A DNA stretch of 64,000 bases, taken from the NCBI GenBank assembly GCA_900770945.1, contig CAAGME010000037.1, positions 78,336-142,335 on the forward strand, in the 5' to 3' direction. The translations under genes were made by a program, and so were the position numbers. This stretch comes from Clostridia bacterium. GTDB taxonomy: Bacteria; Bacillota; Clostridia; Christensenellales; Borkfalkiaceae. The notes under the pieces were generated by a model. It made no database searches and was not told the origin of the DNA. It saw only the letters and a list, made by a program, of their open reading frames with translations. Position 1 is the stretch's first letter; the number at the start of each line of letters is the position of its first letter. This document shows positions 999-55,701 of this stretch, one piece after another.

Positions 999-2360
999 TT
1001 AGTTTTTGGAACCAGATTTTGTTTCAAGCTTGACTTCTTCCTTCGGTTTGATGCACAAAAGCACGATTATCGCGATAAAGCATGCCGCGCTTATGGAAAG
1101 GAAAATAATCGAAGTGGTGTTGTACTTGAAAAATTCTTTTTCCTGCTTAACTCTCGTGAATTGCTTGGTGCAGTCGATGGGTTTGGAAATTACTTTGTCT
1201 TCCATATTGTAAGCGTCCACAACGCGAAGCCCTACGTAATAGTAACCTTTGGTATCGGGCGTAAAGGTGAGCGAGCCGGTTTTGAATTTTGCGTAATCTT
1301 TGTCGTCCTCGGTAAGATTCTTAAAGCCCTTTGCCGCCTTGATTTTAGCAAGGTAAGCTTCCGTCGATTCGCCCTCGGTGTACTCTACTAATTCGGTGGT
1401 AAAGTAAAGGCTGTACTCCGACTTATAATCGGTAGCGGTAATCGTGAAGCAATCGCTTACCTTGGTGTATTCGAGGTTAAGATATGCCTGTTTGGAATTG
1501 TTGACGACAATCTGCGGGTTGGTAGAAGATGCGACGGTGAACTTGAAGGTCGGGATAATAACGTCACCGGTAGCGTTGCCGTCGTCGTCCTTTTTATACC
1601 AGCCGCCCTCGCCTTCGACAAGTTCGTCGGTACTTAGCGTTCCGGAGGGGTTGGGGCAAACGTAAGTAACGTAGAACGAGTAAGTGCCGACCTTGTCGAG
1701 CTTAAAGGAGCTTGACGAGGTGGTGGAATAGGTGGAAGAAGAAGGTACGCAATAGTGGATTGTAGCGTCGAGATCGTCATAAGCAAAGTACTTGCTCGAA
1801 ACGATTGCGGACATACCCTTTTCGTCGTTCAATTCGATATCGGAAACGGAAAAACTGTCGCCCGTTTTTTTGTTCTCGGCGGCTTTTTCTACTGCGGACT
1901 GAAAATCGGCGGTTTTCGCGATATCGTAAGATACGTCGACTTCGTCGACTTGCTCGTAATTTTTAGTTAAAACGTCAACGGTTTTTTCGACCGTTTCACC
2001 CTTTTTTACGGTGAAAGTATAAGTACCCTCGGCAAGGAAAACCACTTTGTCAACGCCCTTGGAAAGGGTTTTTGAGTAAGCTTCCTCGTCTTTTTTATCG
2101 TCGCCGGTGACTTCCGCGACAGCCGCGCCGGACTTATCTTTCGTCCAACGATAAGTTGCCGTTCTGCCGTCGAAGATATCCTTACCCTCTTCCGCAACGA
2201 TTCCGAATTCTTTCATCAAATATTCGGCGGTGTATTCGTAACCCATAATTTTAACAATCGGGTCGCCCTCCGCGTTGGCGGCGGTCGTTACGGGAACGAA
2301 GGTGAAGCAAATTGCAATTATAAGTAAAACTGCAAGGCTGAAAATAGTTTTGCGTTTCAT
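999..2360 (-). CDS. Cell-surface protein: N-terminal signal peptide, C-terminal transmembrane anchor, no recognisable catalytic domain
   Basis: N-terminus MKRKTIFSLAVLLIIAICFTFVPVTTAANA is a signal peptide. C-terminus SIIFLSISAACFIAIIVLLCIKPKEE is a TM helix plus basic tail. Body is Thr/Ser/Tyr-rich and beta-like. Start moved to the ATG at 2360 (AGGAG upstream). Confidence 0.55.
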   Translation of the reverse strand: MKRKTIFSLAVLLIIAICFTFVPVTTAANAEGDPIVKIMGYEYTAEYLMKEFGIVAEEGKDIFDGRTATYRWTKDKSGAAVAEVTGDDKKDEEAYSKTLSKGVDKVVFLAEGTYTFTVKKGETVEKTVDVLTKNYEQVDEVDVSYDIAKTADFQSAVEKAAENKKTGDSFSVSDIELNDEKGMSAIVSSKYFAYDDLDATIHYCVPSSSTYSTTSSSSFKLDKVGTYSFYVTYVCPNPSGTLSTDELVEGEGGWYKKDDDGNATGDVIIPTFKFTVASSTNPQIVVNNSKQAYLNLEYTKVSDCFTITATDYKSEYSLYFTTELVEYTEGESTEAYLAKIKAAKGFKNLTEDDKDYAKFKTGSLTFTPDTKGYYYVGLRVVDAYNMEDKVISKPIDCTKQFTRVKQEKEFFKYNTTSIIFLSISAACFIAIIVLLCIKPKEEVKLETKSGSKN

Positions 2361-2514
2361 GTGAGCCATACTCCTAAGTATGCGGGCATAGTTTCCCGCT
2401 TGTAATCCTCTTAATTTTACTTCTTTACGGGCGTTTTGTCAAGACTTCTTTAACGCCTATAAAGTTTTTTTTTAAAATTTGACGTTATTTTTGCAAAAAT
2501 AATTCTAAAAAAGC

Positions 2515-3225
2515 TTATTTACCGTAAACGAGAACGTCGTCGGTAATATCAAAGTACTTCCAGGGCGTGTTTTCGACGGGCGGAAAAACTTTGAACGTTA
2601 GCCGCTCTTTGGACACGGGGTGGGAAAACGAAAGGGAAGCCGCCCACAAGGCTATGCGACCTTTAACGGCTTTTTCGCCGCCGTAACGCATATCGCCGTA
2701 GACGGGAGTGCCGCGCGACGAGCTTTGAACGCGTATCTGGTGAGTTCTGCCCGTGTGCAGTTCTATCATAACGAGAGATAAGCCCTTCTTTTCGTCTATA
2801 ACGCGATATTCGAGTTCCGCAAGTTTCGCCCCCTCTACCGTGGACGGGCAGACGTAAACCATATTGTTGACGGTGTTCTTTTTCATGTAATCCGTCCATA
2901 TTCCGCGTTTTTCTTTCGGGCTGCCGACAAGTACCGTGAGGTATTTTTTTGAAAAGTCGCCCTCGCGCATTTGCTCGGAAAGCCTTGCCGCCGCTTTGGA
3001 ACTTTTAGCGTACACCATGACTCCGCCCGTAACCCGGTCGAGCCTATGCACCAAGCCGACGTAAACGTTACCGGGCTTATCGTACTTTTCCTTGATGTAC
3101 TCTTTTATCACGGTGAGCAGGTCTTTATCCCCCGTCGCGTCTTCGCAGCACGGAACGTTTTGCGGTTTGAAAACGACGATTATGTGATTGTCCTCGTATA
3201 AAACTACCAAATCTTCTTTAGTCAT
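2515..3225 (-). CDS. RluA-family pseudouridine synthase
   Basis: HRLDRVTGGVMVYAKS catalytic Asp motif and a HQIRVQ-type C-terminal motif; 236 aa. Confidence 0.8.
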   Translation of the reverse strand: MTKEDLVVLYEDNHIIVVFKPQNVPCCEDATGDKDLLTVIKEYIKEKYDKPGNVYVGLVHRLDRVTGGVMVYAKSSKAAARLSEQMREGDFSKKYLTVLVGSPKEKRGIWTDYMKKNTVNNMVYVCPSTVEGAKLAELEYRVIDEKKGLSLVMIELHTGRTHQIRVQSSSRGTPVYGDMRYGGEKAVKGRIALWAASLSFSHPVSKERLTFKVFPPVENTPWKYFDITDDVLVYGK

Positions 3226-4075
3226 TGATGAAAATTCCTCCCGCGCCGCACGGCAGAGCTATGCCCTCTTCCGTCGGCAAACCCACTTCGTAGGCTTCTA
3301 TTCTGCCGCGACCGTTCGCAACGGCGAGCGTAAGCACGTTTTTAAGTACGCACGGTTGAAGCCCCGTGGTGTAGCTGTTTATAAGGAAAAACAACGGATT
3401 GTCGCTTAAAACCTCGGAACAGAGTTTAACGAGGTCGTAAAGCTGGTCTTCGATTTTCCACATTTCGCCGTTAGGTCCTCTGCCGTAGCTCGGCGGGTCC
3501 ATGATAACGGCGTCGTATCTTCTGCCGCGTTTTATTTCGCGCCTGACGAATTTTACGCAATCGTCGATGATAAACCTCACGGGCTTGTCCGAAAGCCCGG
3601 AAAGCCTTACGTTTTCGCCCGCGCGCTCGACCATGCCTTTGCTTGCGTCCACATGGCAGACGGACGCGCCCGCATTAAGGCATGCGCACGTTGCCCCGCC
3701 CGTGTAAGCGAAAAGGTTCAAAACCGAAATAGGTCTGCCGGCGTTTTTGATAAGAGCCGTCATTTTATCCCAGTTTGCGGCTTGCTCCGGGAAAAGCCCG
3801 GTGTGCTTAAAACCCATAGGCTTAACCTTGAATTTAAGCGAGCCGTATGATATAACCCAATCCTCGGGTACTTTTTTGAAGTATTCCCAGCCGCCGCCCC
3901 CTTTGTCGCTGCGAGTGTAGCGCGCGTGGACGGGATAGGAAAACAAATCAATCGAGCTTTTCCAGATAACCTGCGGGTCGGGGCGGAGAAGAATTATATC
4001 CTTCCACCGCTCTAATTTGTACCCGTCGCCCGTGGCTATTACGGAATAATCGTTCCATTTGTCCGCTATAAGCAT
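3218..4075 (-). CDS. Class I SAM-dependent (likely rRNA) methyltransferase, RlmI/RlmK-like
   Basis: DAVIMDPPSYGRG (DPP[FY] motif) and a Rossmann fold GxGxG-like region FAYTGG; overlaps the rluA-like stop by 8 nt. Confidence 0.65.
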   Translation of the reverse strand: MLIADKWNDYSVIATGDGYKLERWKDIILLRPDPQVIWKSSIDLFSYPVHARYTRSDKGGGGWEYFKKVPEDWVISYGSLKFKVKPMGFKHTGLFPEQAANWDKMTALIKNAGRPISVLNLFAYTGGATCACLNAGASVCHVDASKGMVERAGENVRLSGLSDKPVRFIIDDCVKFVRREIKRGRRYDAVIMDPPSYGRGPNGEMWKIEDQLYDLVKLCSEVLSDNPLFFLINSYTTGLQPCVLKNVLTLAVANGRGRIEAYEVGLPTEEGIALPCGAGGIFIND

Positions 4076-50073: not shown

Positions 50074-51348
50074 ATGCGGGCGGCAAAAAGGAGCGTAAAT
50101 ATGATTGACGAAAGAAAACTCGAAATCTTAACGGAAAGCGCGAAGTACGACGTTTCGTGTTCGTCGTCCGGCTCTTCGAGAAAAAACGTTAAGGGCGGGG
50201 TCGGCAACGCAAGCTACGGCGGAATTTGCCATTCGTTTACGCAGGACGGGCGGTGCATATCGCTACTTAAAATCCTTTCGTCGAACAAATGCGTGTACGA
50301 CTGCTTATATTGCGTAAACCGCCGCAGCAACGACGTTCCGCGCGAGTCCGCCTCGCCCGAGGAGATTTGCGAGCTTGTCATGAATTTTTACAGGCGAAAC
50401 TACATAGAAGGGCTTTTCTTGTCCTCCGCGGTGGAACGCAGCCCCGACTACACTATGGAACGGCTTTTAGAAGTCGTAATGCGGCTAAGAAAGCTTTACT
50501 GTTTTCACGGGTACATTCACTTAAAAGGCATACCCGGGGCGAGTAAATATCTCTTAAACAAAGCCGCAAAATACGTTGACAGAATGAGTTGCAACATAGA
50601 GCTTCCGAGCGAGAAAAGCCTTAAACTTTTAGCTCCGCAAAAGTCAAAAACCGCGCTTATCGAGCCGATGGGAATGTTAGCGGAAAATTTGCGGCAAGCA
50701 AAAACGGAGCGCAACAAAAAGTTTTTGCCGGCAGGACAGACAACGCAAATGATTGTCGGGGCATCGCGCGAGACGGATGGGCAGATAATAAGGCTTACGC
50801 AGGCTTTATACAAAAAATTCGATATGAAGCGAGTGTATTTTTCATCGTATATCCCGACTAATTTTACTTCAAACCTCCTGCCCGCCCGCCCCGCCGGGCT
50901 TTTGCGCGAACACCGCCTTTATCAAGCCGACTGGTTAATGCGGTTTTACGGGTTCAGAGCCGACGAAATTTCCGACGAGAACGAAGACCTCGATTTAACG
51001 ATGGACCCCAAGTGCCGCTGGGCTTTGCGCCACCCCGAGTTTTTCCCGGTGGAAGTAAACGCCGCCCCGCCGGAAGTTTTGCTACGCGTTCCCGGGATAG
51101 GGTTCAAAAGCGCGTACAAGATAGTTTCCGCGCGGAGGTATTCCAAGCTTGATTTTTGCGACCTTGTCAAGCTCCGCGTGGTTTTAAAGCGAGCGGCGCA
51201 TTTTGTCACTTGCGGCGGCAAGTTCATCGGCGACGAAAAAAACGCTCAACGGCTTTTGCTTCTACCCGAAGCCGAGCAAAAATACGAACAACTGTCTCTC
51301 TTTTCTTCGCCGGAAATAAGCTTAAGCGCGTTAACGGGGCAGTTATGA
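50074..51348 (+). CDS. Putative DNA modification/repair radical SAM protein (TIGR03916-like)
   Basis: CVYDCLYC (Cx3Cx2C) radical SAM cluster motif; 424 aa; stop overlaps the start of the partner gene (ATGA). Confidence 0.75.
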   Translation: MRAAKRSVNMIDERKLEILTESAKYDVSCSSSGSSRKNVKGGVGNASYGGICHSFTQDGRCISLLKILSSNKCVYDCLYCVNRRSNDVPRESASPEEICELVMNFYRRNYIEGLFLSSAVERSPDYTMERLLEVVMRLRKLYCFHGYIHLKGIPGASKYLLNKAAKYVDRMSCNIELPSEKSLKLLAPQKSKTALIEPMGMLAENLRQAKTERNKKFLPAGQTTQMIVGASRETDGQIIRLTQALYKKFDMKRVYFSSYIPTNFTSNLLPARPAGLLREHRLYQADWLMRFYGFRADEISDENEDLDLTMDPKCRWALRHPEFFPVEVNAAPPEVLLRVPGIGFKSAYKIVSARRYSKLDFCDLVKLRVVLKRAAHFVTCGGKFIGDEKNAQRLLLLPEAEQKYEQLSLFSSPEISLSALTGQL

Positions 51349-52091
51349 TTTATTTCACAAAAAGCGGGCGCGACGGAATTTTGTGCGCTCTATACGAAAG
51401 CTTCACTCAAAAAGAATCCCCTTCCGCCGTGTATTCGTCAAGCTTTGCTCCCGTTATCGGTGAAGAGGTAAAAGAGATAGTTTTTGACAAAGAAAACGCC
51501 GTCAGAGTAAAAAAAGGCATTATCAAACACGGGGGTATAAGCCTGTTATCGGCACTTTTTTATCCTTTGCGTTCATATTCGGACGATAAAGAAACGGTGG
51601 TTTTCAAAGCCGCCGAGCGGTGCCTTGACATGCGGAAAAACGTCCTCGATAATTTTTCCGATAGGTTCGTTTTAAGGCATTACGAGCTTACAAAGCAAAT
51701 AAGTTACGAGGTTCACAGAATGGAAGGTTTTTTGCGTTTTGAAGAAGCCGAGGGCGGATATTATGCGCGCTTTACTCCCGACAACGACATTATAGACCTT
51801 GTCGCCCCGCACTTTAAAAGAAGATTTTCCGACGAAAAATTCATCATTCACGACATAAAGCGCAACAAGCTTTGCTTTTTCGACGGCGAAGCCCTGCATT
51901 TTTTAAAACCCGATAAGCCCGTCACGGTGTATTTGACGGCAAACGAGCAAGCTTATTCTTCGCTTTGGAAAAAATATTTTAAGGCGGTAAGCATAGCGGA
52001 GCGCAAAAACGAACGCTTACAAGACAATTGGCTTCCTCGCCGCTACCGCGCCACCATGTTGGAATTCTCCCCTCCCGAAAACTTTAACTAA
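51345..52091 (+). CDS. Probable DNA metabolism protein, uracil-DNA-glycosylase-superfamily (TIGR03915-like) partner of the radical SAM protein
   Basis: Start reset to MIYFTKSG at 51345 (4-nt overlap with the upstream stop); 248 aa; conserved pairing with the TIGR03916 radical SAM. Confidence 0.65.
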   Translation: MIYFTKSGRDGILCALYESFTQKESPSAVYSSSFAPVIGEEVKEIVFDKENAVRVKKGIIKHGGISLLSALFYPLRSYSDDKETVVFKAAERCLDMRKNVLDNFSDRFVLRHYELTKQISYEVHRMEGFLRFEEAEGGYYARFTPDNDIIDLVAPHFKRRFSDEKFIIHDIKRNKLCFFDGEALHFLKPDKPVTVYLTANEQAYSSLWKKYFKAVSIAERKNERLQDNWLPRRYRATMLEFSPPENFN

Positions 52092-52524
52092 AAAAATTTT
52101 CGGTCGATGTTTTTTTAGAGCCGGCTTTCGCCCCTCCACTCAAAAACAATCGACCGATTTTTTTTGGTTTTTAATCGTTCGCCCTTTGTCCGCTTATAAG
52201 CAACTCCGGCATAATGGTAGCATTTAAAATTACTTAGACCTAAAACCTCAAATCCGAGATTTCGGTAACGGAAAATAGCGATTCCGATAACTTTAAACAC
52301 TTAAAAGGTATAACCACAAGTATATTTTATCGTTAATTTTGTTGTTTAACAAGCAAACCGATTTAAAAACATATTCAAAAAAAATCTTCATCAACGCACA
52401 AGAGCGTTTCGTCCGAGATTTTTTCTTTTGTGACGATGTTATCGACAAGCACCATCGAAACACCGATTTATCTTGCGAATCGATTTATGGTTCACAACCA
52501 TTTTTTCTCTATCAACAAATATTA

Positions 52525-52620
52525 ACGTAAGATATGCAGGAATCGTTTGGCAAACGCCTCCTGCGTAATGTCTATCGGGTTATCGTCCCACATTGTATCA
52601 AGTATCTTATTTTTGCTCAT
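52525..52620 (-). CDS. Candidate 32-aa small ORF downstream of the ASCH gene
   Basis: MSKNKILDTMWDDNPIDITQEAFAKRFLHILR, preceded by a strong RBS AGGAGAG with an 8-nt spacer, 44 nt downstream of the ASCH stop; no homology recognised. Confidence 0.25.
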
Positions 52621-52664
52621 TTATAAAACTCTCCTGATGATTTTTCTACTTTCAATTGATGTTT

Positions 52665-53036
52665 TTAAATGTATACGAAGGATTGCGGCGCGGATTTAAT
52701 GCCGTATTCCAATAAAGTTTTAGGCTCATCATAAACTTTAATTTTGCCTAATTTATAAGCGTAGGCAATTTCTTTTCCCTCAAAATACTCATCGAAAAAT
52801 GCTTTGCTGATGCCGGATTCTTCTTTTGTAAGTTTCCACAATTCTTCAGGCGAATACATTAAAACGTCTATAATTTCTGCTTCTGCAACAATTCTTTTTA
52901 CGGGAGTGGTTTCGTAAATAACGATGGAAGTAATATCTTGTTTTGCTGCAATTTTTCTATATTCGTATTTCTTGATGCCTTTAATAATATTTTGCACGTG
53001 CTCAGGGTTGATGGATATTAATATTTTCTTTTTCAT
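52665..53036 (-). CDS. Standalone ASCH (PUA-like) domain protein, YqfB-like
   Basis: 123 aa. ILISINPEHVQNIIKGIKKYEYRK matches the ASCH N-terminal G-x-K-x-x-E-x-R signature. Start codon sits 3 nt after the stop of the 618-aa gene, with its GGAGG RBS inside that gene's end. Confidence 0.7.
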   Translation of the reverse strand: MKKKILISINPEHVQNIIKGIKKYEYRKIAAKQDITSIVIYETTPVKRIVAEAEIIDVLMYSPEELWKLTKEESGISKAFFDEYFEGKEIAYAYKLGKIKVYDEPKTLLEYGIKSAPQSFVYI

Positions 53037-53039
53037 TTT

Positions 53040-54896
53040 TTATTCCTCCATTCCTAATTTATAAATAGTGTCAAATTGCTCTTGGGTTATAAACGTAAAC
53101 GGGCGCGGTCCTGAATACTTATCTAAAACACCGTAATCTCTTAATTCGTTTAATGTAACCTTATGATTAAATGGTTTGTAATCTAAAATCGTTACTACGG
53201 TAGAATATTTACTATATACAGCTCGGATATCTTTTTCATTGAAAATTGATTTATCCTTACAAATACTTATACACTCTTCGACGTTCTTAGTTTTTATGAC
53301 TTCTTGAACAATCGCCATACCGGTAACCACCGAAGAGTAATTTTTGTACAACCCTTCTCCCATTCTATAAATTAAAACCATGTCTCCCACTTTTGCCGGA
53401 ATATTAAACGCTCCCGTTAAATATATCTTCTCGATTGCATATCTATGAGCAAGGTTATCTTCATATAAATGCATATCTTCGTTCTTCAAAATATTATCAG
53501 GAAATAAATCCGTATGATATTTAGCATAAATAGGAAGAAAGTAATGATTTCGATCCTTTTTCAAAATAGGATAATTGAACTTTGGCGTTTCAGCATCGTT
53601 ATACTGTTTCATATCTTTTACAAGCACTAATTCGCCGTTCGATTTCTTATAGCCGTGCTTAACAAAACCCCATTGTTCCATTATACTTTTTAATGCGCAA
53701 ACTTCCTGCCTTTTATCTTCAAAAAGCGTTACATACGCTTCATCAACATTCCACTTGACAGCATTCTCAAAAATAATCTTTAAGAAACGTTCTCCCAAAC
53801 GGAAACCTGTGCGCTCGATCTTAAAAGTTCCAACTTTTAATCTTCTTTTCGGAGATAATATGGGCTCTATATCAGAATAGTTTTCGTTTTCATCTTCTAT
53901 TTTAAGATATAAAAAGCCTTTTAATTTTTCGTCATTATCTTCAAAAACGTATGCTTTTTCATTGCCTTTTTTCTTAAACCAATCATCAAACTTTTTTCCT
54001 TCATAATCTTCTCTTAGAGTATCAAAGAAAGAGCTGTTTATATCCACCTCGTCGAATCGTTTTAATTTAACCGCAAGCATTTTGTATTCAATGTTTTTTG
54101 GATACGTCCTTTCAAAATACTCTAACAGTTCAGCAGATGTAACGACTTTATCTCTGATAAACAAATCTTTTGCTTTTTTCAAGATTGCGTTATCATCGGT
54201 AAGCAGAATACCAACATTATCATTATATACTTCTAAAAGTAAAGCATTATCAATTTTGCTATTTGCATCTTGCGAATATTGATTCACAATATGTTCAAAG
54301 TAATCATCTTTTTCTGAAGTGAACGAAGGCAAGATGTCATAAGAACTTGCTTTAGCAAGCATTGCATTTTTTACTTTCTCGTCTTTATGCGATTCCAATT
54401 CCCCTATAGTGCTTTTATGTAGATATTTCTTTAATTGTTTTTTATCGAACCATTTAAACAAGTTGCTTATCTCGAACGAAACATTATTACTGCTTTCTCT
54501 TTTAATAAAAATATTTGTATCAAGCAAAATACTTGATTTTGAATAGTCAATATATAACGGCTCTATTTCAAATGCGACGATTCCGTAACGGTCAACTTCA
54601 TCTTTAGAATAAAATTTATAACACTCTTTTAAAGTAGCGTCTAATGAAGTGAAAATGTTTTTAAAATCTTGTTCCCAATTTTCAATTAAAGCTTCATTCC
54701 ACGAACTATAAACTTTAATTCCTTTTATAGTTGCTCTAACGAAGTAATCTTTATTTTGATTTGATATCAAAACGAAAGTGTCGCCCACTTTTGCCTGCAT
54801 CCTTTCAGGCGACGCTAACCGATATTCGTGTTTTTTTACTCTGTTTTTAATGTCGCTTATAAATTTATCTCTAATTTTTAAATAATATGTTTTCAT
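53040..54896 (-). CDS. Multidomain fusion protein: ASCH (aa 1-115), PIN nuclease (~120-265), GNAT acetyltransferase (~305-430), C-terminal PUA-like/EVE-like beta-barrel (~440-618)
   Basis: N-terminus LKIRDKFISDIKNRVKKHEYRL (ASCH-like). SILLDTNIFI…GELES…GILLTDDNAIL (PIN acidic quartet). VGTFKIERTGFRLGERFLKIIFENA and ALKSIMEQWGFVKHGY (GNAT motifs A and B). C-terminal KVGDMVLIYRMGEG…VVTGMAIVQEV (EVE/PUA-like). AT-rich codon usage unlike the neighbours. Confidence 0.6.
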   Translation of the reverse strand: MKTYYLKIRDKFISDIKNRVKKHEYRLASPERMQAKVGDTFVLISNQNKDYFVRATIKGIKVYSSWNEALIENWEQDFKNIFTSLDATLKECYKFYSKDEVDRYGIVAFEIEPLYIDYSKSSILLDTNIFIKRESSNNVSFEISNLFKWFDKKQLKKYLHKSTIGELESHKDEKVKNAMLAKASSYDILPSFTSEKDDYFEHIVNQYSQDANSKIDNALLLEVYNDNVGILLTDDNAILKKAKDLFIRDKVVTSAELLEYFERTYPKNIEYKMLAVKLKRFDEVDINSSFFDTLREDYEGKKFDDWFKKKGNEKAYVFEDNDEKLKGFLYLKIEDENENYSDIEPILSPKRRLKVGTFKIERTGFRLGERFLKIIFENAVKWNVDEAYVTLFEDKRQEVCALKSIMEQWGFVKHGYKKSNGELVLVKDMKQYNDAETPKFNYPILKKDRNHYFLPIYAKYHTDLFPDNILKNEDMHLYEDNLAHRYAIEKIYLTGAFNIPAKVGDMVLIYRMGEGLYKNYSSVVTGMAIVQEVIKTKNVEECISICKDKSIFNEKDIRAVYSKYSTVVTILDYKPFNHKVTLNELRDYGVLDKYSGPRPFTFITQEQFDTIYKLGMEE

Positions 54897-54973
54897 TTAT
54901 TATTCTCTCAATTTATCCTAAAAAGTATAAGTTTCTTTTTCTTCTCTAAGTTCTTTCAATATAAGCATATTTT

Positions 54974-55192
54974 TTAAACTTTAAAATAATCGTCAAGCCC
55001 TAAAAGGTAATCCGCGCTTTCGTTGAGCAATTTGCATAGGTTAAACAACACTTCGACCGACGGCAAGTTTTCACCGTTTTTCCAATTCGTAATATTGCTT
55101 TCGGAAATATTCAACTTTTCGGCGATTTCCTTTTGAGAAAGCCCGCTGCTTTTTATCGCTTCTGCAATTCTTTCGCTAAACTTCATAATCAC
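54974..55192 (-). CDS. XRE-family helix-turn-helix transcriptional regulator
   Basis: 72 aa; LSQKEIAEKLNISESNITNWKNGENLPSVEVLFNLCKLL is a canonical HTH_XRE. Confidence 0.8.
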   Translation of the reverse strand: MIMKFSERIAEAIKSSGLSQKEIAEKLNISESNITNWKNGENLPSVEVLFNLCKLLNESADYLLGLDDYFKV

Positions 55193-55293
55193 AATTACAC
55201 CTCATTTTTAATTCAGTTTAACAGAATTAAATGCGAAATTGTTGACATTTCAGTCTTACTGAAGTATAATTAACACACACAGGGAGATTTATT

Positions 55294-55650
55294 ATGTTTT
55301 GTAAAAATTGCGGAAAGGAAGTTGACGAAAAGGCTTACGTTTGCATACATTGCGGGTGCAAGATAGAGAGCAAAGAAGAAAAAACGGAAAATAACGTTTT
55401 TGAGAGTTTATCGCAAGCGTTTTCGGTTATCGCGCTTGTAGGGATTTTAGTTTATATTATTTTTTCCGACGCAAAAAACGCCTTGCTTGTTTTAAAAATA
55501 GCGAGCTTGGGCGGCACTATTGCGGCTTTTATCGGCGCGGTTTTCGGGAAAATAAAAAACGACGACGATAGCAATTTTTTCCACAATATCGTTGAATTTC
55601 TTATTTGCATAGCTTTGATTTTTAAAACTTTAATAAATTTTTCGGAATAA
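55294..55650 (+). CDS. Zinc-ribbon membrane protein (N-terminal CxxC…CxxC, then 2-3 TM helices)
   Basis: MFCKNCGKEVDEKAYVCIHCGC followed by hydrophobic helices; divergent from the HTH gene; terminator ctcggg…cccgag plus a T-run at 55654-55700. Confidence 0.55.
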   Translation: MFCKNCGKEVDEKAYVCIHCGCKIESKEEKTENNVFESLSQAFSVIALVGILVYIIFSDAKNALLVLKIASLGGTIAAFIGAVFGKIKNDDDSNFFHNIVEFLICIALIFKTLINFSE

Positions 55651-55701
55651 AAAACTCGGGAATCATTAGCGACGAAACCCGAGTAAATTATTTTTTTCTT
55701 T

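What the first reader, a model, noticed from the sequence alone, without database searches (positions are those of the whole stretch)
52665..53036. Translationally coupled standalone ASCH protein: possible eraser or antidote for the GNAT activity
A 123-aa YqfB-like ASCH protein starts 3 nt after the fusion gene's stop, with its GGAGG RBS embedded in that gene's last codons, so the two are made together. Small YqfB-type ASCH proteins are N4-acylcytidine amidohydrolases. A writer (GNAT) plus eraser (ASCH) arrangement would parallel GNAT toxin-antitoxin pairs (AtaT/TacT), but with enzymatic reversal rather than sequestration.
Basis: inference. Interest (0 to 1): 0.65.

Follow-up and report, generated by a model that had tools for sequence, protein, structure and literature searches.

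The report
ASCH partner of PIN-GNAT-EVE defence module

Summary
A 123-aa ASCH ORF (52665..53036, minus strand) starts 3 nt after the stop of a 618-aa ORF, and a GGAGG lies in that ORF's last codons. This tight junction (-4 to +5 nt) is kept in all 29 close genome relatives where an upstream ORF could be called. From the other side, 78 of 78 informative phage contigs carrying a GNAT-EVE gene also carry this ASCH.

The protein is not YqfB-like: it has Glu where YqfB has its nucleophilic Thr. Its closest structure is Zymomonas ZmASCH (TM 0.88), while YqfB ranks 24th.

The pair matches PADLOC candidate defence system PDC-M11 (A: E 5e-152; B: E 6e-40). This is the "(PIN)-GNAT-EVE + ASCH" operon described computationally in 2013 and 2020. 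A lambdoid phage record annotates its homologues as GevT toxin and GevA antitoxin.

The antidote idea is therefore plausible but not new. Enzymatic erasure remains an open hypothesis. In its favour, Lys22/Glu25/Arg27 are invariant, and ZmASCH deacetylates tRNA ac4C in vitro. Against it, this ASCH domain is fused elsewhere to nucleases, P-loop NTPases and GNATs, which also fits a reader or adaptor role.

This is a new member of a known, uncharacterised kind. Interest is moderate.

The parts
52665..53036 (-). Gene B: a 123-aa stand-alone ASCH protein of the ZmASCH / PDC-M11B / GevA-like family. The octapeptide is G20-x-K22-x-x-E25-x-R27. Y41, K47 and S119 correspond to ZmASCH Y47, K53 and S128.
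   Evidence: PDC-M11B E 6e-40; pLDDT 90.9; ZmASCH TM 0.88.
53037..53049 (-). Coupling junction. GGAGG (53049..53045) lies inside the last codons of gene A, followed by stop TAA (53042..53040) and a 3-nt spacer before the ATG of gene B.
   Evidence: Read directly from the sequence. The junction is conserved in related loci, with gaps of -4 to +5 nt.
53040..54896 (-). Gene A: a 618-aa multi-domain effector (PDC-M11A) with the architecture ASCH - PIN - GNAT-like - EVE.
   Evidence: (PDC-M11A E 5e-152 over residues 123-615).
54543..54896 (-). Gene A residues 1-118: an N-terminal ASCH domain of a different subfamily, like PH0355/PF0455. K21, E24 and R26 are invariant. It is not covered by the PADLOC models.
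   Evidence: Pfam ASCH E 2e-8; 2z0t, 33% identity, TMt 0.88; YqfB TMt 0.76; (no meaningful similarity to gene B).
54111..54536 (-). Gene A residues 121-262: a PIN-like nuclease domain. The acidic residues D126, E166, D216 and D234 are invariant.
   Evidence: PIN_12 E 4.8e-5, below the gathering score.
53577..54074 (-). Gene A residues 275-440: a GNAT-like acyltransferase fold. K354, T357, F358, K359, G368, Y388, T390, G410 and F411 are invariant across the family. The acetyl-CoA loop is only partly canonical.
   Evidence: no Pfam hit; Foldseek hits to GNATs; (profile hit to PaiA E 7e-4, Naa50 E 0.011).
53043..53444 (-). Gene A residues 485-618: an EVE (PUA-like) domain.
   Evidence: EVE E 7e-4, below the gathering score; THYN1 5j3e.
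54974..55192 (-). A 72-aa XRE-type HTH gene lying 77 nt upstream of gene A on the same strand. It is the probable transcriptional regulator of the module.
   Evidence: HTH_3 E 1.8e-14. Relatives carry a different 127-155 aa HTH gene at this position.
52522..52620 (-). A 32-codon stub of a type I R-M hsdM gene. This is a deletion scar directly downstream of gene B.
   Evidence: The first 22 codons are 91% identical to the start of the intact hsdM that follows gene B in L003.
52100..55690 (.). An AT-rich islet (GC 0.27-0.38, against 0.44-0.54 in the flanks) that carries the module, inserted between housekeeping genes.

Best explanation
The 123-aa gene encodes the obligate ASCH partner (PDC-M11B, GevA-like) of a toxin-antidote-type anti-phage module. 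Its first gene is a 618-aa ASCH-PIN-GNAT-like-EVE effector (PDC-M11A, GevT-like). Shown: the two genes are real and translationally coupled, they co-occur invariably, and they lie in a horizontally acquired AT-rich islet beside the remnant of a type I R-M system. The ASCH protein belongs to the Glu-type ZmASCH family, and its Lys22-Glu25-Arg27 pocket is invariant. Inferred: an XRE regulator controls the operon. The large protein is the harmful effector. Its PUA-like EVE and N-terminal ASCH domains dock it on (modified) nucleic acid, most likely RNA or tRNA. Its GNAT-like domain transfers an acyl group to a base or aminoacyl moiety, and its PIN domain cleaves RNA. The small ASCH protein, made in fixed proportion from the same mRNA, is the antidote. 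It most likely acts catalytically through the Lys/Glu dyad that other ASCH proteins use to hydrolyse N4-acetylcytidine. In that case it removes the acyl mark (a DarT/DarG-like writer-eraser logic) rather than only sequestering the effector. Phage infection would tip this balance and release the effector. My estimates: membership of this module type about 0.9; gene B as the neutralising partner about 0.6; neutralisation by enzymatic deacylation about 0.35-0.4.
For: Family membership: PADLOC PDC-M11A E 5e-152 and PDC-M11B E 6e-40. The literature describes (PIN)-GNAT-EVE operons that 'almost all' encode an ASCH protein, and predicts them to be TA or defence systems.

Obligate pairing: gene A lies directly upstream of every close gene B homologue that has sequence upstream, with junctions of -4 to +5 nt. 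In addition, 78 of 80 phage contigs with a GNAT-EVE gene have a B-family ORF; the other two are cut at the contig end.

Toxin/antitoxin labels: phage PhiR47_2 annotates its GNAT-EVE gene as 'GevT toxin' and the overlapping ASCH gene as 'GevA antitoxin', at the rexAB position next to cI. GevA is 41% identical to gene B.

Catalytic pocket: K22, E25, R27 and Y84 are 100% conserved in 96 family sequences that share only 39-64% identity with gene B. The Lys/Glu dyad is essential for tRNA ac4C removal in TthASCH, EOLA1 and TRIP4, and ZmASCH removed tRNA ac4C in vitro. ZmASCH is a family member (PDC-M11B E 1e-24; profile E 3e-23; TM 0.88). ZmASCH-like genes lie next to PIN-GNAT-EVE genes on plasmids.

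Conservation pattern: gene B is the most conserved module in 25 of 26 loci (mean 81%), followed by the GNAT domain (71%), while PIN, EVE and the N-terminal ASCH vary more. In the mosaic locus L003, gene B is 93% identical but gene A only 54-71%. This fits an enzyme acting on a conserved substrate better than a co-evolving sequestration interface.

Link to GNATs: the B-type ASCH domain is linked to two different GNAT lineages, adjacent to GNAT-EVE and fused to canonical GNATs in P0248 and P0324.

Defence-island context: AT-rich islet, hsdM stub, and type I R-M and HNH genes in related loci.
Against: No experiment on this module was found in the searchable literature. The GevT/GevA names come from a GenBank record only, and no paper in the library holds GevT together with 'antitoxin'.

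The GNAT assignment rests on fold and weak profile matches. Only the last Gly of the acetyl-CoA loop is kept, so acyl transfer is not demonstrated.

ZmASCH did not hydrolyse free ac4C and did not lower tRNA ac4C in vivo. It was earlier reported as an ssRNA ribonuclease.

The B-type ASCH domain is fused to HNH and pPIWI-associated nucleases, to AAA_17 P-loop proteins, to canonical GNATs and to the C-terminus of a PIN-GNAT-EVE protein. A writer and its eraser in one polypeptide look futile. Sensor-nuclease fusions are the hallmark of modified-base readers, which is how Bell et al. read this ASCH.

Gene A here carries its own N-terminal ASCH with the same Lys/Glu/Arg motif, so 'ASCH equals antidote' cannot hold for every ASCH domain in the system.
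Confidence: 0.4

Rival explanations
1. Reader or adaptor. The ASCH protein is a non-neutralising specificity subunit. Its pocket flips out and recognises a modified base, either a phage modification or the mark written by the GNAT domain. It then recruits or licenses nucleases (the PIN domain of gene A, or the HNH protein in relatives), following type IV restriction logic.
For: The B-type ASCH domain is fused to HNH_5 (P0327), to a pPIWI-associated nuclease (P0368) and to AAA_17 P-loop proteins (10 of 20 long family members examined). About half of the related loci have an HNH_5 gene abutting gene B. Bell et al. report HsdS-ASCH and HTH-ASCH fusions and conclude that this ASCH binds modified DNA. 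The module lies next to type I R-M genes. Gene A and gene B are naturally fused in P0319. TRIP4 ASCH structures bound to dsDNA appear among the fold hits.
Against: PUA-like readers normally use aromatic cages. Here the invariant residues are the Lys/Glu/Arg set that is catalytic in ASCH hydrolases. The window's module has no HNH gene yet keeps gene B intact. The phage homologue is labelled antitoxin.
Confidence: 0.3
2. Classical protein antitoxin or regulator. The ASCH protein neutralises the effector by direct binding, or represses the operon together with the XRE protein. The conserved pocket would serve only for nucleic-acid or operator binding.
For: Tight translational coupling and fixed stoichiometry are typical of type II TA pairs. 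HTH-ASCH fusions occur in alpha-proteobacteria, for example a 301-aa HTH protein upstream of PIN-GNAT-EVE on the Rhizobium plasmid pRetIE4771b. The phage homologue carries the GevA antitoxin label.
Against: Gene B is more conserved than every domain of gene A (25 of 26 loci), and it pairs with a strongly diverged gene A in L003. This is the opposite of what fast co-evolving antitoxin interfaces would show. The invariance of the catalytic dyad would be left unexplained.
Confidence: 0.15
3. Second effector. The ASCH protein is itself a Mg-dependent single-stranded RNA ribonuclease, as reported for ZmASCH, and adds to the RNA damage done by the PIN domain.
For: ZmASCH degrades ssRNA, and Y47, K53 and S128 contribute to this activity. 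The equivalent residues Y41, K47 and S119 are present in gene B.
Against: The ZmASCH authors noted that there are no acidic metal ligands in the cleft and that the mechanism is unclear. K47 is variable across the family (41 of 96 sequences). The role conflicts with the antitoxin label.
Confidence: 0.07
4. Unrelated housekeeping enzyme. The protein is a YqfB-like N4-acetylcytidine nucleoside amidohydrolase for pyrimidine salvage that merely happens to lie next to the large gene.
For: It has an ASCH fold, and Lys and Arg of the octapeptide are present.
Against: YqfB's Thr is replaced by Glu. YqfB is a remote fold hit. ZmASCH, the nearest characterised relative, is inactive on free ac4C. The linkage to GNAT-EVE genes across phyla and phages is obligate. 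The gene lies in a mobile AT-rich islet.
Confidence: 0.02

Closest known systems
PADLOC candidate system PDC-M11, which is the '(PIN)-GNAT-EVE + ASCH' operon of Iyer et al. 2013 and Bell, Wolf & Koonin 2020
   Same: Both proteins hit the PDC-M11A and PDC-M11B models very strongly. The architecture is PIN-GNAT-like-EVE followed by a small ASCH gene. The module is associated with type I R-M and an HTH regulator.
   Different: Gene A here has an extra N-terminal ASCH domain that lies outside the PADLOC models (the match starts at residue 123). This domain is not mentioned in the passages of Bell et al. that I read. The AAA_17 gene is absent here, and many relatives carry an HNH_5 gene instead. 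The system remains a candidate with no published function.
GevT toxin / GevA antitoxin of lambdoid Escherichia phages (GenBank PV340567.1, phage PhiR47_2)
   Same: GevT aligns to residues 269-615 of gene A (GNAT-like plus EVE, 35% identity, E 1e-40). GevA is 41% identical to gene B over its full length. The gene order is the same and the genes overlap.
   Different: GevT lacks the PIN and N-terminal ASCH domains. The phage genes overlap by 23 nt instead of having a 3-nt gap. The pair is prophage-borne, next to cI. I found no paper behind the names.
ZmASCH (Zymomonas mobilis; PDB 5GUS, 5GUQ, 5Y6B, 5Y6C)
   Same: It is the best structural and sequence match (TM 0.88, rmsd 1.8 A; profile E 3e-23). 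It has the same GxKxxExR motif, and the Y47, K53 and S128 equivalents are present. It is a PDC-M11B family member.
   Different: Identity is only 26-27%. ZmASCH is annotated as an HTH-domain protein. Its reported activities do not yet agree with each other: ssRNA cleavage in 2017, tRNA ac4C removal in vitro in 2026, and no activity on free ac4C or in vivo.
E. coli YqfB (N4-acylcytidine amidohydrolase)
   Same: It shares the ASCH beta-barrel and the Lys and Arg of the octapeptide.
   Different: YqfB's nucleophile Thr24 is Glu25 here. Identity is 12% and TM is 0.61 (rank 24). YqfB does not hit PDC-M11B. It is a solitary housekeeping gene acting on free nucleosides.
GNAT toxin-antitoxin pairs (AtaT/AtaR, TacT/TacA, KacT/KacA, ItaT/ItaR); comparison from general knowledge
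   Same: The proposed logic is shared: an acyltransferase toxin acting on the translation apparatus plus a co-transcribed antidote.
   Different: Those toxins are small canonical GNATs, and their antitoxins are RHH/DUF1778 proteins that sequester the toxin. Here the GNAT-like domain matches no Pfam GNAT model, it is embedded in a four-domain protein, and the partner is an ASCH protein.
DarT/DarG (writer-eraser toxin-antitoxin; from general knowledge)
   Same: This is the best mechanistic analogy for the favoured model: the toxin writes a covalent mark on nucleic acid and the antitoxin is a hydrolase domain that removes it.
   Different: There is no homology (ADP-ribosyltransferase and macrodomain versus GNAT-like and ASCH). 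Erasure is demonstrated for DarG but is only hypothesised here.

Membership tests
PDC-M11 / (PIN)-GNAT-EVE + ASCH operon | The large protein matches the PDC-M11A profile (PIN-GNAT-like-EVE). | tested here: met
   E 5.3e-152 over residues 123-615. Searches support the individual domains.
PDC-M11 / (PIN)-GNAT-EVE + ASCH operon | The small protein matches the PDC-M11B profile (ASCH). | tested here: met
   E 5.9e-40 over residues 4-123.
PDC-M11 / (PIN)-GNAT-EVE + ASCH operon | The two genes are adjacent and co-oriented, and they co-occur consistently. | tested here: met
   every close genome locus with sequence upstream, and 78 of 78 informative viral loci.
PDC-M11 / (PIN)-GNAT-EVE + ASCH operon | The module protects against phage. 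| not testable with these tools
   It is only a 'candidate' in PADLOC, and no experimental paper was found.
Toxin-antitoxin system (GevT/GevA-like) | The large protein is toxic alone and is neutralised by the ASCH protein. | not testable with these tools
   The only support is the product names in GenBank PV340567.1 and the prediction of Bell et al..
YqfB-type N4-acylcytidine amidohydrolases | A Thr nucleophile in the octapeptide (GxKTxTxR; YqfB Thr24). | tested here: not met
   Glu25 occupies this position in gene B and in 96 of 96 family sequences.
YqfB-type N4-acylcytidine amidohydrolases | Equivalents of Lys21 and Arg26. | tested here: met
   K22 and R27 are invariant.
YqfB-type N4-acylcytidine amidohydrolases | An equivalent of the acid residue Glu74. 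| tested here: inconclusive
YqfB-type N4-acylcytidine amidohydrolases | Close overall similarity to YqfB. | tested here: not met
   Foldseek rank 24, TM 0.61, 12% identity. YqfB does not appear in the sequence searches.
Glu-type ('GKER') ASCH proteins, ZmASCH subfamily | The octapeptide GxKxxExR, containing the Lys/Glu dyad. | tested here: met
   G20, K22, E25 and R27.
Glu-type ('GKER') ASCH proteins, ZmASCH subfamily | The ZmASCH cleft residues Y47, K53 and S128. | tested here: met
   Y41, K47 and S119. The correspondence is fixed by the alignments to the Y47F and S128A mutant entries. Across the family, Y41 is kept in 99%, S119 in 90%, and K47 is variable.
Glu-type ('GKER') ASCH proteins, ZmASCH subfamily | The same fold. 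| tested here: met
   TM 0.88 and rmsd 1.8 A, with a model of pLDDT 90.9.
Glu-type ('GKER') ASCH proteins, ZmASCH subfamily | Deacylase (ac4C-removing) activity. | not testable with these tools
   It has been reported for ZmASCH in vitro only.
GNAT toxin-antitoxin pairs (AtaT/TacT type) | A small canonical GNAT toxin with an intact acetyl-CoA loop. | tested here: not met
   There is no Pfam GNAT hit. The domain is embedded in a 618-aa protein. Only the last Gly of the Q/RxxGxG/A loop is conserved.
GNAT toxin-antitoxin pairs (AtaT/TacT type) | An RHH/DUF1778 antitoxin. | tested here: not met
   The partner is an ASCH protein.
Modification-dependent (type IV) restriction enzymes | A PUA-superfamily sensor combined with a DNA nuclease. 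| tested here: inconclusive
   EVE and ASCH sensors are present, but the only nuclease here is a PIN-like (typically RNA) domain. Relatives carry HNH_5 as a neighbouring gene or as a fusion.

The most novel reading that the evidence does not exclude
The pair may be a nucleic-acid acylation writer-eraser immune switch. In this reading the GNAT-like domain of the large protein, steered by its EVE and ASCH reader domains, N-acylates cytidines (or another base or aminoacyl group) in tRNA, RNA or DNA. The co-translated Glu-type ASCH protein is a dedicated RNA deacylase that continuously reverses this until phage infection breaks the balance. If so, it would be the first toxin-antitoxin or defence system based on reversible base acetylation. 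It would also give a physiological role to the large ZmASCH-type ASCH family (3,846 cluster representatives). The three-PUA-domain variant in this window, with its extra PH0355/YqfB-like ASCH on the effector, would then combine a cis and a trans eraser or reader.
Probability: 0.3. Interest if true: 0.75.

Novelty: new member of a known kind. Interest (0 to 1): 0.42.

Why it matters
The (PIN)-GNAT-EVE + ASCH module is widespread in gut Firmicutes, proteobacterial prophages, plasmids and archaea. It has been listed as a candidate defence or TA system for over a decade without a mechanism. It combines three modified-base 'reader' folds with a putative acyltransferase and a nuclease. Recent evidence that ASCH proteins deacetylate ac4C in tRNA makes a concrete writer-eraser hypothesis testable. 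Two points sharpen that test. First, the only structurally and biochemically studied bacterial Glu-type ASCH (ZmASCH) belongs to this partner family. Second, the Lys/Glu/Arg pocket is invariant across the family. For genome annotation, the practical result is that this ORF should be labelled a PDC-M11B / GevA-like ASCH protein, not a YqfB-like amidohydrolase.

Tried and rejected
1. Pfam and NCBIfam searches for a GNAT in gene A found nothing, either on the full protein or on the excised middle domain. The GNAT assignment had to come from the structure model and a family profile.

2. I tested whether gene B is a duplicate of gene A's N-terminal ASCH. They share only a 21-residue motif match (E 0.021), and they have different best structural neighbours, so this was rejected.

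3. I tested whether the 72-aa XRE gene is conserved. It is not. Relatives carry an unrelated 127-155 aa HTH gene at that position, so only 'an HTH gene upstream' is conserved.

4. Literature searches for PDC-M11, GNAT-EVE, GevT/GevA and PhiR47 found no experimental paper. The only PDC-M11 mention is a defence-system inventory. PhiR47 phages are mentioned once, in a preprint about a different defence nuclease (SNIPE). Iyer et al. 2013 is not held in the library.

5. The promoter and terminator scan found no more sites than shuffled sequence gives, so it was uninformative.

6. The 'E. coli' locus L039 turned out to be a 37% GC contig carrying only a C-terminal fragment of gene B. I treated it as a mis-binned remnant, not an E. 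coli instance.

7. The equivalent of YqfB Glu74 could not be settled by sequence alignment.

Full report
**1. Observation.** The ORF at 52665..53036 (minus strand) encodes 123 aa, and the ORF at 53040..54896 (minus strand) encodes 618 aa. On the minus strand the junction reads GGA ATG GAG GAA TAA AAA ATG. There are 3 nt between the stop and the ATG. GGAGG (53049..53045) lies 8 nt before the ATG, inside the last codons of the upstream gene. No terminator-like site separates the two genes. Pfam calls the small protein ASCH (E 1.6e-5). In the large protein it finds ASCH (residues 6-114), PIN_12 (123-236, sub-threshold) and EVE (502-613, sub-threshold), but no GNAT. The whole stretch from about 52100 to 55690 is AT-rich (GC 0.27-0.38, against 0.44-0.54 in the flanks). 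It sits between housekeeping genes in a gut MAG contig, GCA_902463295.1.

**2. The coupling is conserved, not accidental.** A scan of one genome per species found 79 loci.
- In every locus with a close homologue (68-93% identity) and sequence upstream, the same 617-633 aa multi-domain gene lies directly upstream. These are Christensenellaceae, Oscillospiraceae, Ruminococcaceae, Bacilli and Mollicutes MAGs.
- In the 29 of 32 loci where an upstream ORF could be called, the stop-to-ATG distance is -4 to +5 nt, with an upstream G-rich Shine-Dalgarno-like motif (GGAGG in most).
- Three distant homologues (40-50% identity; Carboxydothermus, a cyanobacterium, Bacteroides) follow a shorter 351-355 aa GNAT-like-EVE gene, with a 23-26 nt overlap.
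- From the opposite direction, 80 viral contigs found with the GNAT-like-EVE profile were checked. Of these, 78 carry a B-family ASCH ORF, nearly always immediately downstream. The other two are cut at the contig end.

**3. What the two proteins are.** PADLOC models identify the pair as candidate defence system PDC-M11. Gene A scores E 5e-152 over residues 123-615, and gene B scores E 6e-40.
- The AlphaFold model of gene A (pLDDT 83) gives Foldseek hits for each domain. The N-terminal ASCH matches PH0355 (33% identity, TMt 0.88) and also YqfB (TMt 0.76). The middle domain matches GNAT acetyltransferases (2oh1, SbzI, NatA, NatD and PaiA; E 4e-5 to 1e-3). The C-terminal EVE matches THYN1.
- A profile of distant family members hits PaiA at E 7e-4 and Naa50 at E 0.011, across the beta4-alpha3-beta5-alpha4 core. 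Only the last Gly (G368) of the acetyl-CoA loop is conserved.
- The PIN acidic residues D126, E166, D216 and D234 are invariant.
- The model of gene B (pLDDT 90.9) superposes on Zymomonas ZmASCH at TM 0.88 and rmsd 1.8 A. YqfB ranks 24th, with TM 0.61 and 12% identity.

**4. The YqfB test.** YqfB uses Lys21, Thr24 and Glu74, with Arg26 as the oxyanion hole. Gene B has G20-x-K22-x-x-E25-x-R27. Lys and Arg are kept, but the Thr nucleophile is replaced by Glu.
- This is the 'GKER' octapeptide type that a 2026 preprint contrasts with the YqfB 'GKTR' type.
- In 96 family sequences sharing only 39-64% identity with gene B, K22, E25, R27 and Y84 are 100% conserved. Y41, P45, G20, W67, T70, G75, P117, Q118 and Y122 are at least 94% conserved.
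- The family profile hits ZmASCH at E 3e-23 over the full length. The mutant PDB entries fix Y41 as ZmASCH Y47 and S119 as ZmASCH S128, and K47 corresponds to K53.
- ZmASCH itself hits PDC-M11B (E 1e-24), whereas YqfB and gene A's N-terminal ASCH hit nothing in PADLOC.
- ZmASCH-like genes lie adjacent to PIN-GNAT-EVE genes on plasmids.

'YqfB-like' is therefore wrong at the family level. However, the same preprint reports that all 19 ASCH proteins it tested, ZmASCH included, removed ac4C from tRNA in vitro, and that the Lys/Glu dyad was essential in the Glu-type proteins that were mutated. ZmASCH was inactive on free ac4C and in vivo. An earlier paper reported ZmASCH as an ssRNA ribonuclease.

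**5. What is already known.** Bell, Wolf and Koonin (2020) describe the '(PIN)-GNAT-EVE' proteins, citing Iyer et al. 2013. They note that almost all such operons encode an ASCH protein, often an AAA_17 ATPase, and sometimes an HTH-ASCH fusion. They report an association with type I R-M and with prophages, and they predict TA or defence function. They also state that none of the modules had been characterised.

A tblastn search against phage records found the GNAT-like-EVE part in lambdoid coliphages. Record PV340567.1 annotates it as 'GevT toxin' and annotates the overlapping 125-aa gene as 'GevA antitoxin'. The pair lies between cI and kil. GevA is 41% identical to gene B (E 4e-33). I could not find a paper behind these names.

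**6. Context in relatives.**
- Most relatives carry a 127-155 aa XRE-HTH gene before gene A. About half carry a 271-292 aa HNH_5 gene abutting gene B. The window instead has an unrelated 72-aa XRE gene and no HNH gene.
- Directly after gene B the window keeps only the first 22 codons (91% identity) of the type I R-M hsdM gene that follows gene B in L003. L006, L007 and L008 also carry hsdM nearby. The neighbouring R-M system has therefore been deleted here.

**7. Evidence bearing on mechanism.**
- Gene B is the most conserved module in 25 of 26 loci. Mean identities are gene B 81%, GNAT 71%, N-terminal ASCH 67%, PIN 62% and EVE 61%. L003 is mosaic, with gene B at 93% and gene A at 54-71%.
- I examined 20 long family members for fusions of the B-type ASCH domain. 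Ten are fused to AAA_17 P-loop proteins and two to canonical GNATs. One each is fused to HNH_5, to a pPIWI-associated nuclease, and to the C-terminus of a PIN-GNAT-EVE protein.
- The repeated link to GNATs supports a chemical connection between acyl transfer and this ASCH. The nuclease fusions, and the single-chain fusion of gene A with gene B, fit a reader or adaptor role equally well.
- Gene A's own N-terminal ASCH keeps K21, E24 and R26. 'ASCH equals antidote' therefore cannot be general within the system.

**8. Verdict.** The gene pair is a new member of a known but mechanistically uncharacterised kind (PDC-M11; (PIN)-GNAT-EVE + ASCH; GevT/GevA-like). It carries a clade-specific extra N-terminal ASCH domain.

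The 'YqfB-like' label and the implied novelty are not supported. My ranking of the mechanisms is:
- enzymatic antidote (deacylase): about 0.4
- reader or adaptor subunit: about 0.3
- sequestering antitoxin or regulator: about 0.15
- RNase co-effector: about 0.07
- unrelated salvage enzyme: about 0.02

None of these can be decided without experiments. The decisive experiments are listed under next steps.

Noticed in passing
window 52522..52620 (-): A 32-codon ORF whose first 22 codons are 91% identical to the start of the type I R-M hsdM gene that follows the ASCH gene in L003. The R-M system next to the module has been deleted here. The rest of 52100..52520 has no ORF longer than 63 aa.
   Followed up: yes
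L001 7373..8251, L013 7369..8190 and about 14 other related loci: A 271-292 aa HNH_5 endonuclease gene abuts or overlaps the end of the ASCH gene in about half of the close relatives. It is also found fused to a B-type ASCH domain (P0327). It has no PADLOC model and is absent from the window, so it may be an unlisted third component of PDC-M11 in gut Firmicutes.
   Followed up: partly
window 54543..54896 (-), residues 1-118 of the 618-aa protein: An extra N-terminal ASCH domain, like PH0355, with K21, E24 and R26 invariant. It lies outside the PADLOC PDC-M11A models and is structurally closer to YqfB (TMt 0.76) than the stand-alone ASCH is. The effector therefore carries three PUA-like domains in cis or in trans.
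   Followed up: partly
L003 2999..5229: A mosaic locus. The ASCH gene and the 110 nt after it are 89-93% identical to the window, but the upstream multi-domain gene is only 54-71% identical. This suggests recombination that swaps the effector while keeping the ASCH partner.
   Followed up: partly
L082 (Lactobacillus prophage Lj965) 1804..3899: Four phage tRNA genes (Ser, Glu, Tyr, Phe) lie immediately upstream of the GNAT-EVE and ASCH pair. This may hint at tRNA as the target, or at tRNA replacement as a counter-measure.
   Followed up: no
P0292, P0294, P0300, P0326, P0336 and others (cluster representatives): The commonest fusion partner of the B-type ASCH domain is an AAA_17/AAA_18/AAA_33 P-loop (kinase-like) domain, in either order. 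Canonical GNAT-ASCH fusions (P0248, P0324) and an ASCH fusion to a pPIWI-associated nuclease (P0368) also exist. Their genomic contexts were not examined.
   Followed up: partly
window 55294..55650 (+): A 118-aa protein with an N-terminal zinc ribbon, a weak hit to a two-transmembrane-segment family and no PADLOC hit. It is divergently oriented from the XRE gene inside the AT-rich islet, preceded by a perfect TTGACA-17-TATAAT promoter-like site at 55242..55270. Whether it belongs to the module is unknown.
   Followed up: no
window 50074..52091 (+): A radical-SAM protein (424 aa) followed, with a start that overlaps its stop, by a DUF4130 protein. This conserved gene pair directly flanks the islet.
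   Followed up: no
L039 6944..7168: A contig labelled E. coli (MAG bin) has 37% GC and carries only a C-terminal fragment (residues 70-122, 70% identity) of the ASCH gene, with no partner gene. It is probably a mis-binned Firmicutes contig carrying a decayed remnant.
   Followed up: yes
L081 (Rhizobium etli plasmid pRetIE4771b) 2124..5108: In alpha-proteobacteria the gene order is different: an HTH-domain protein (301 aa), then PIN-GNAT-EVE (512 aa), then an AAA ATPase, with overlapping genes. The ASCH content of the HTH protein is inferred from Bell et al. and from hits on sister plasmids; I did not test it directly in this record.
   Followed up: partly
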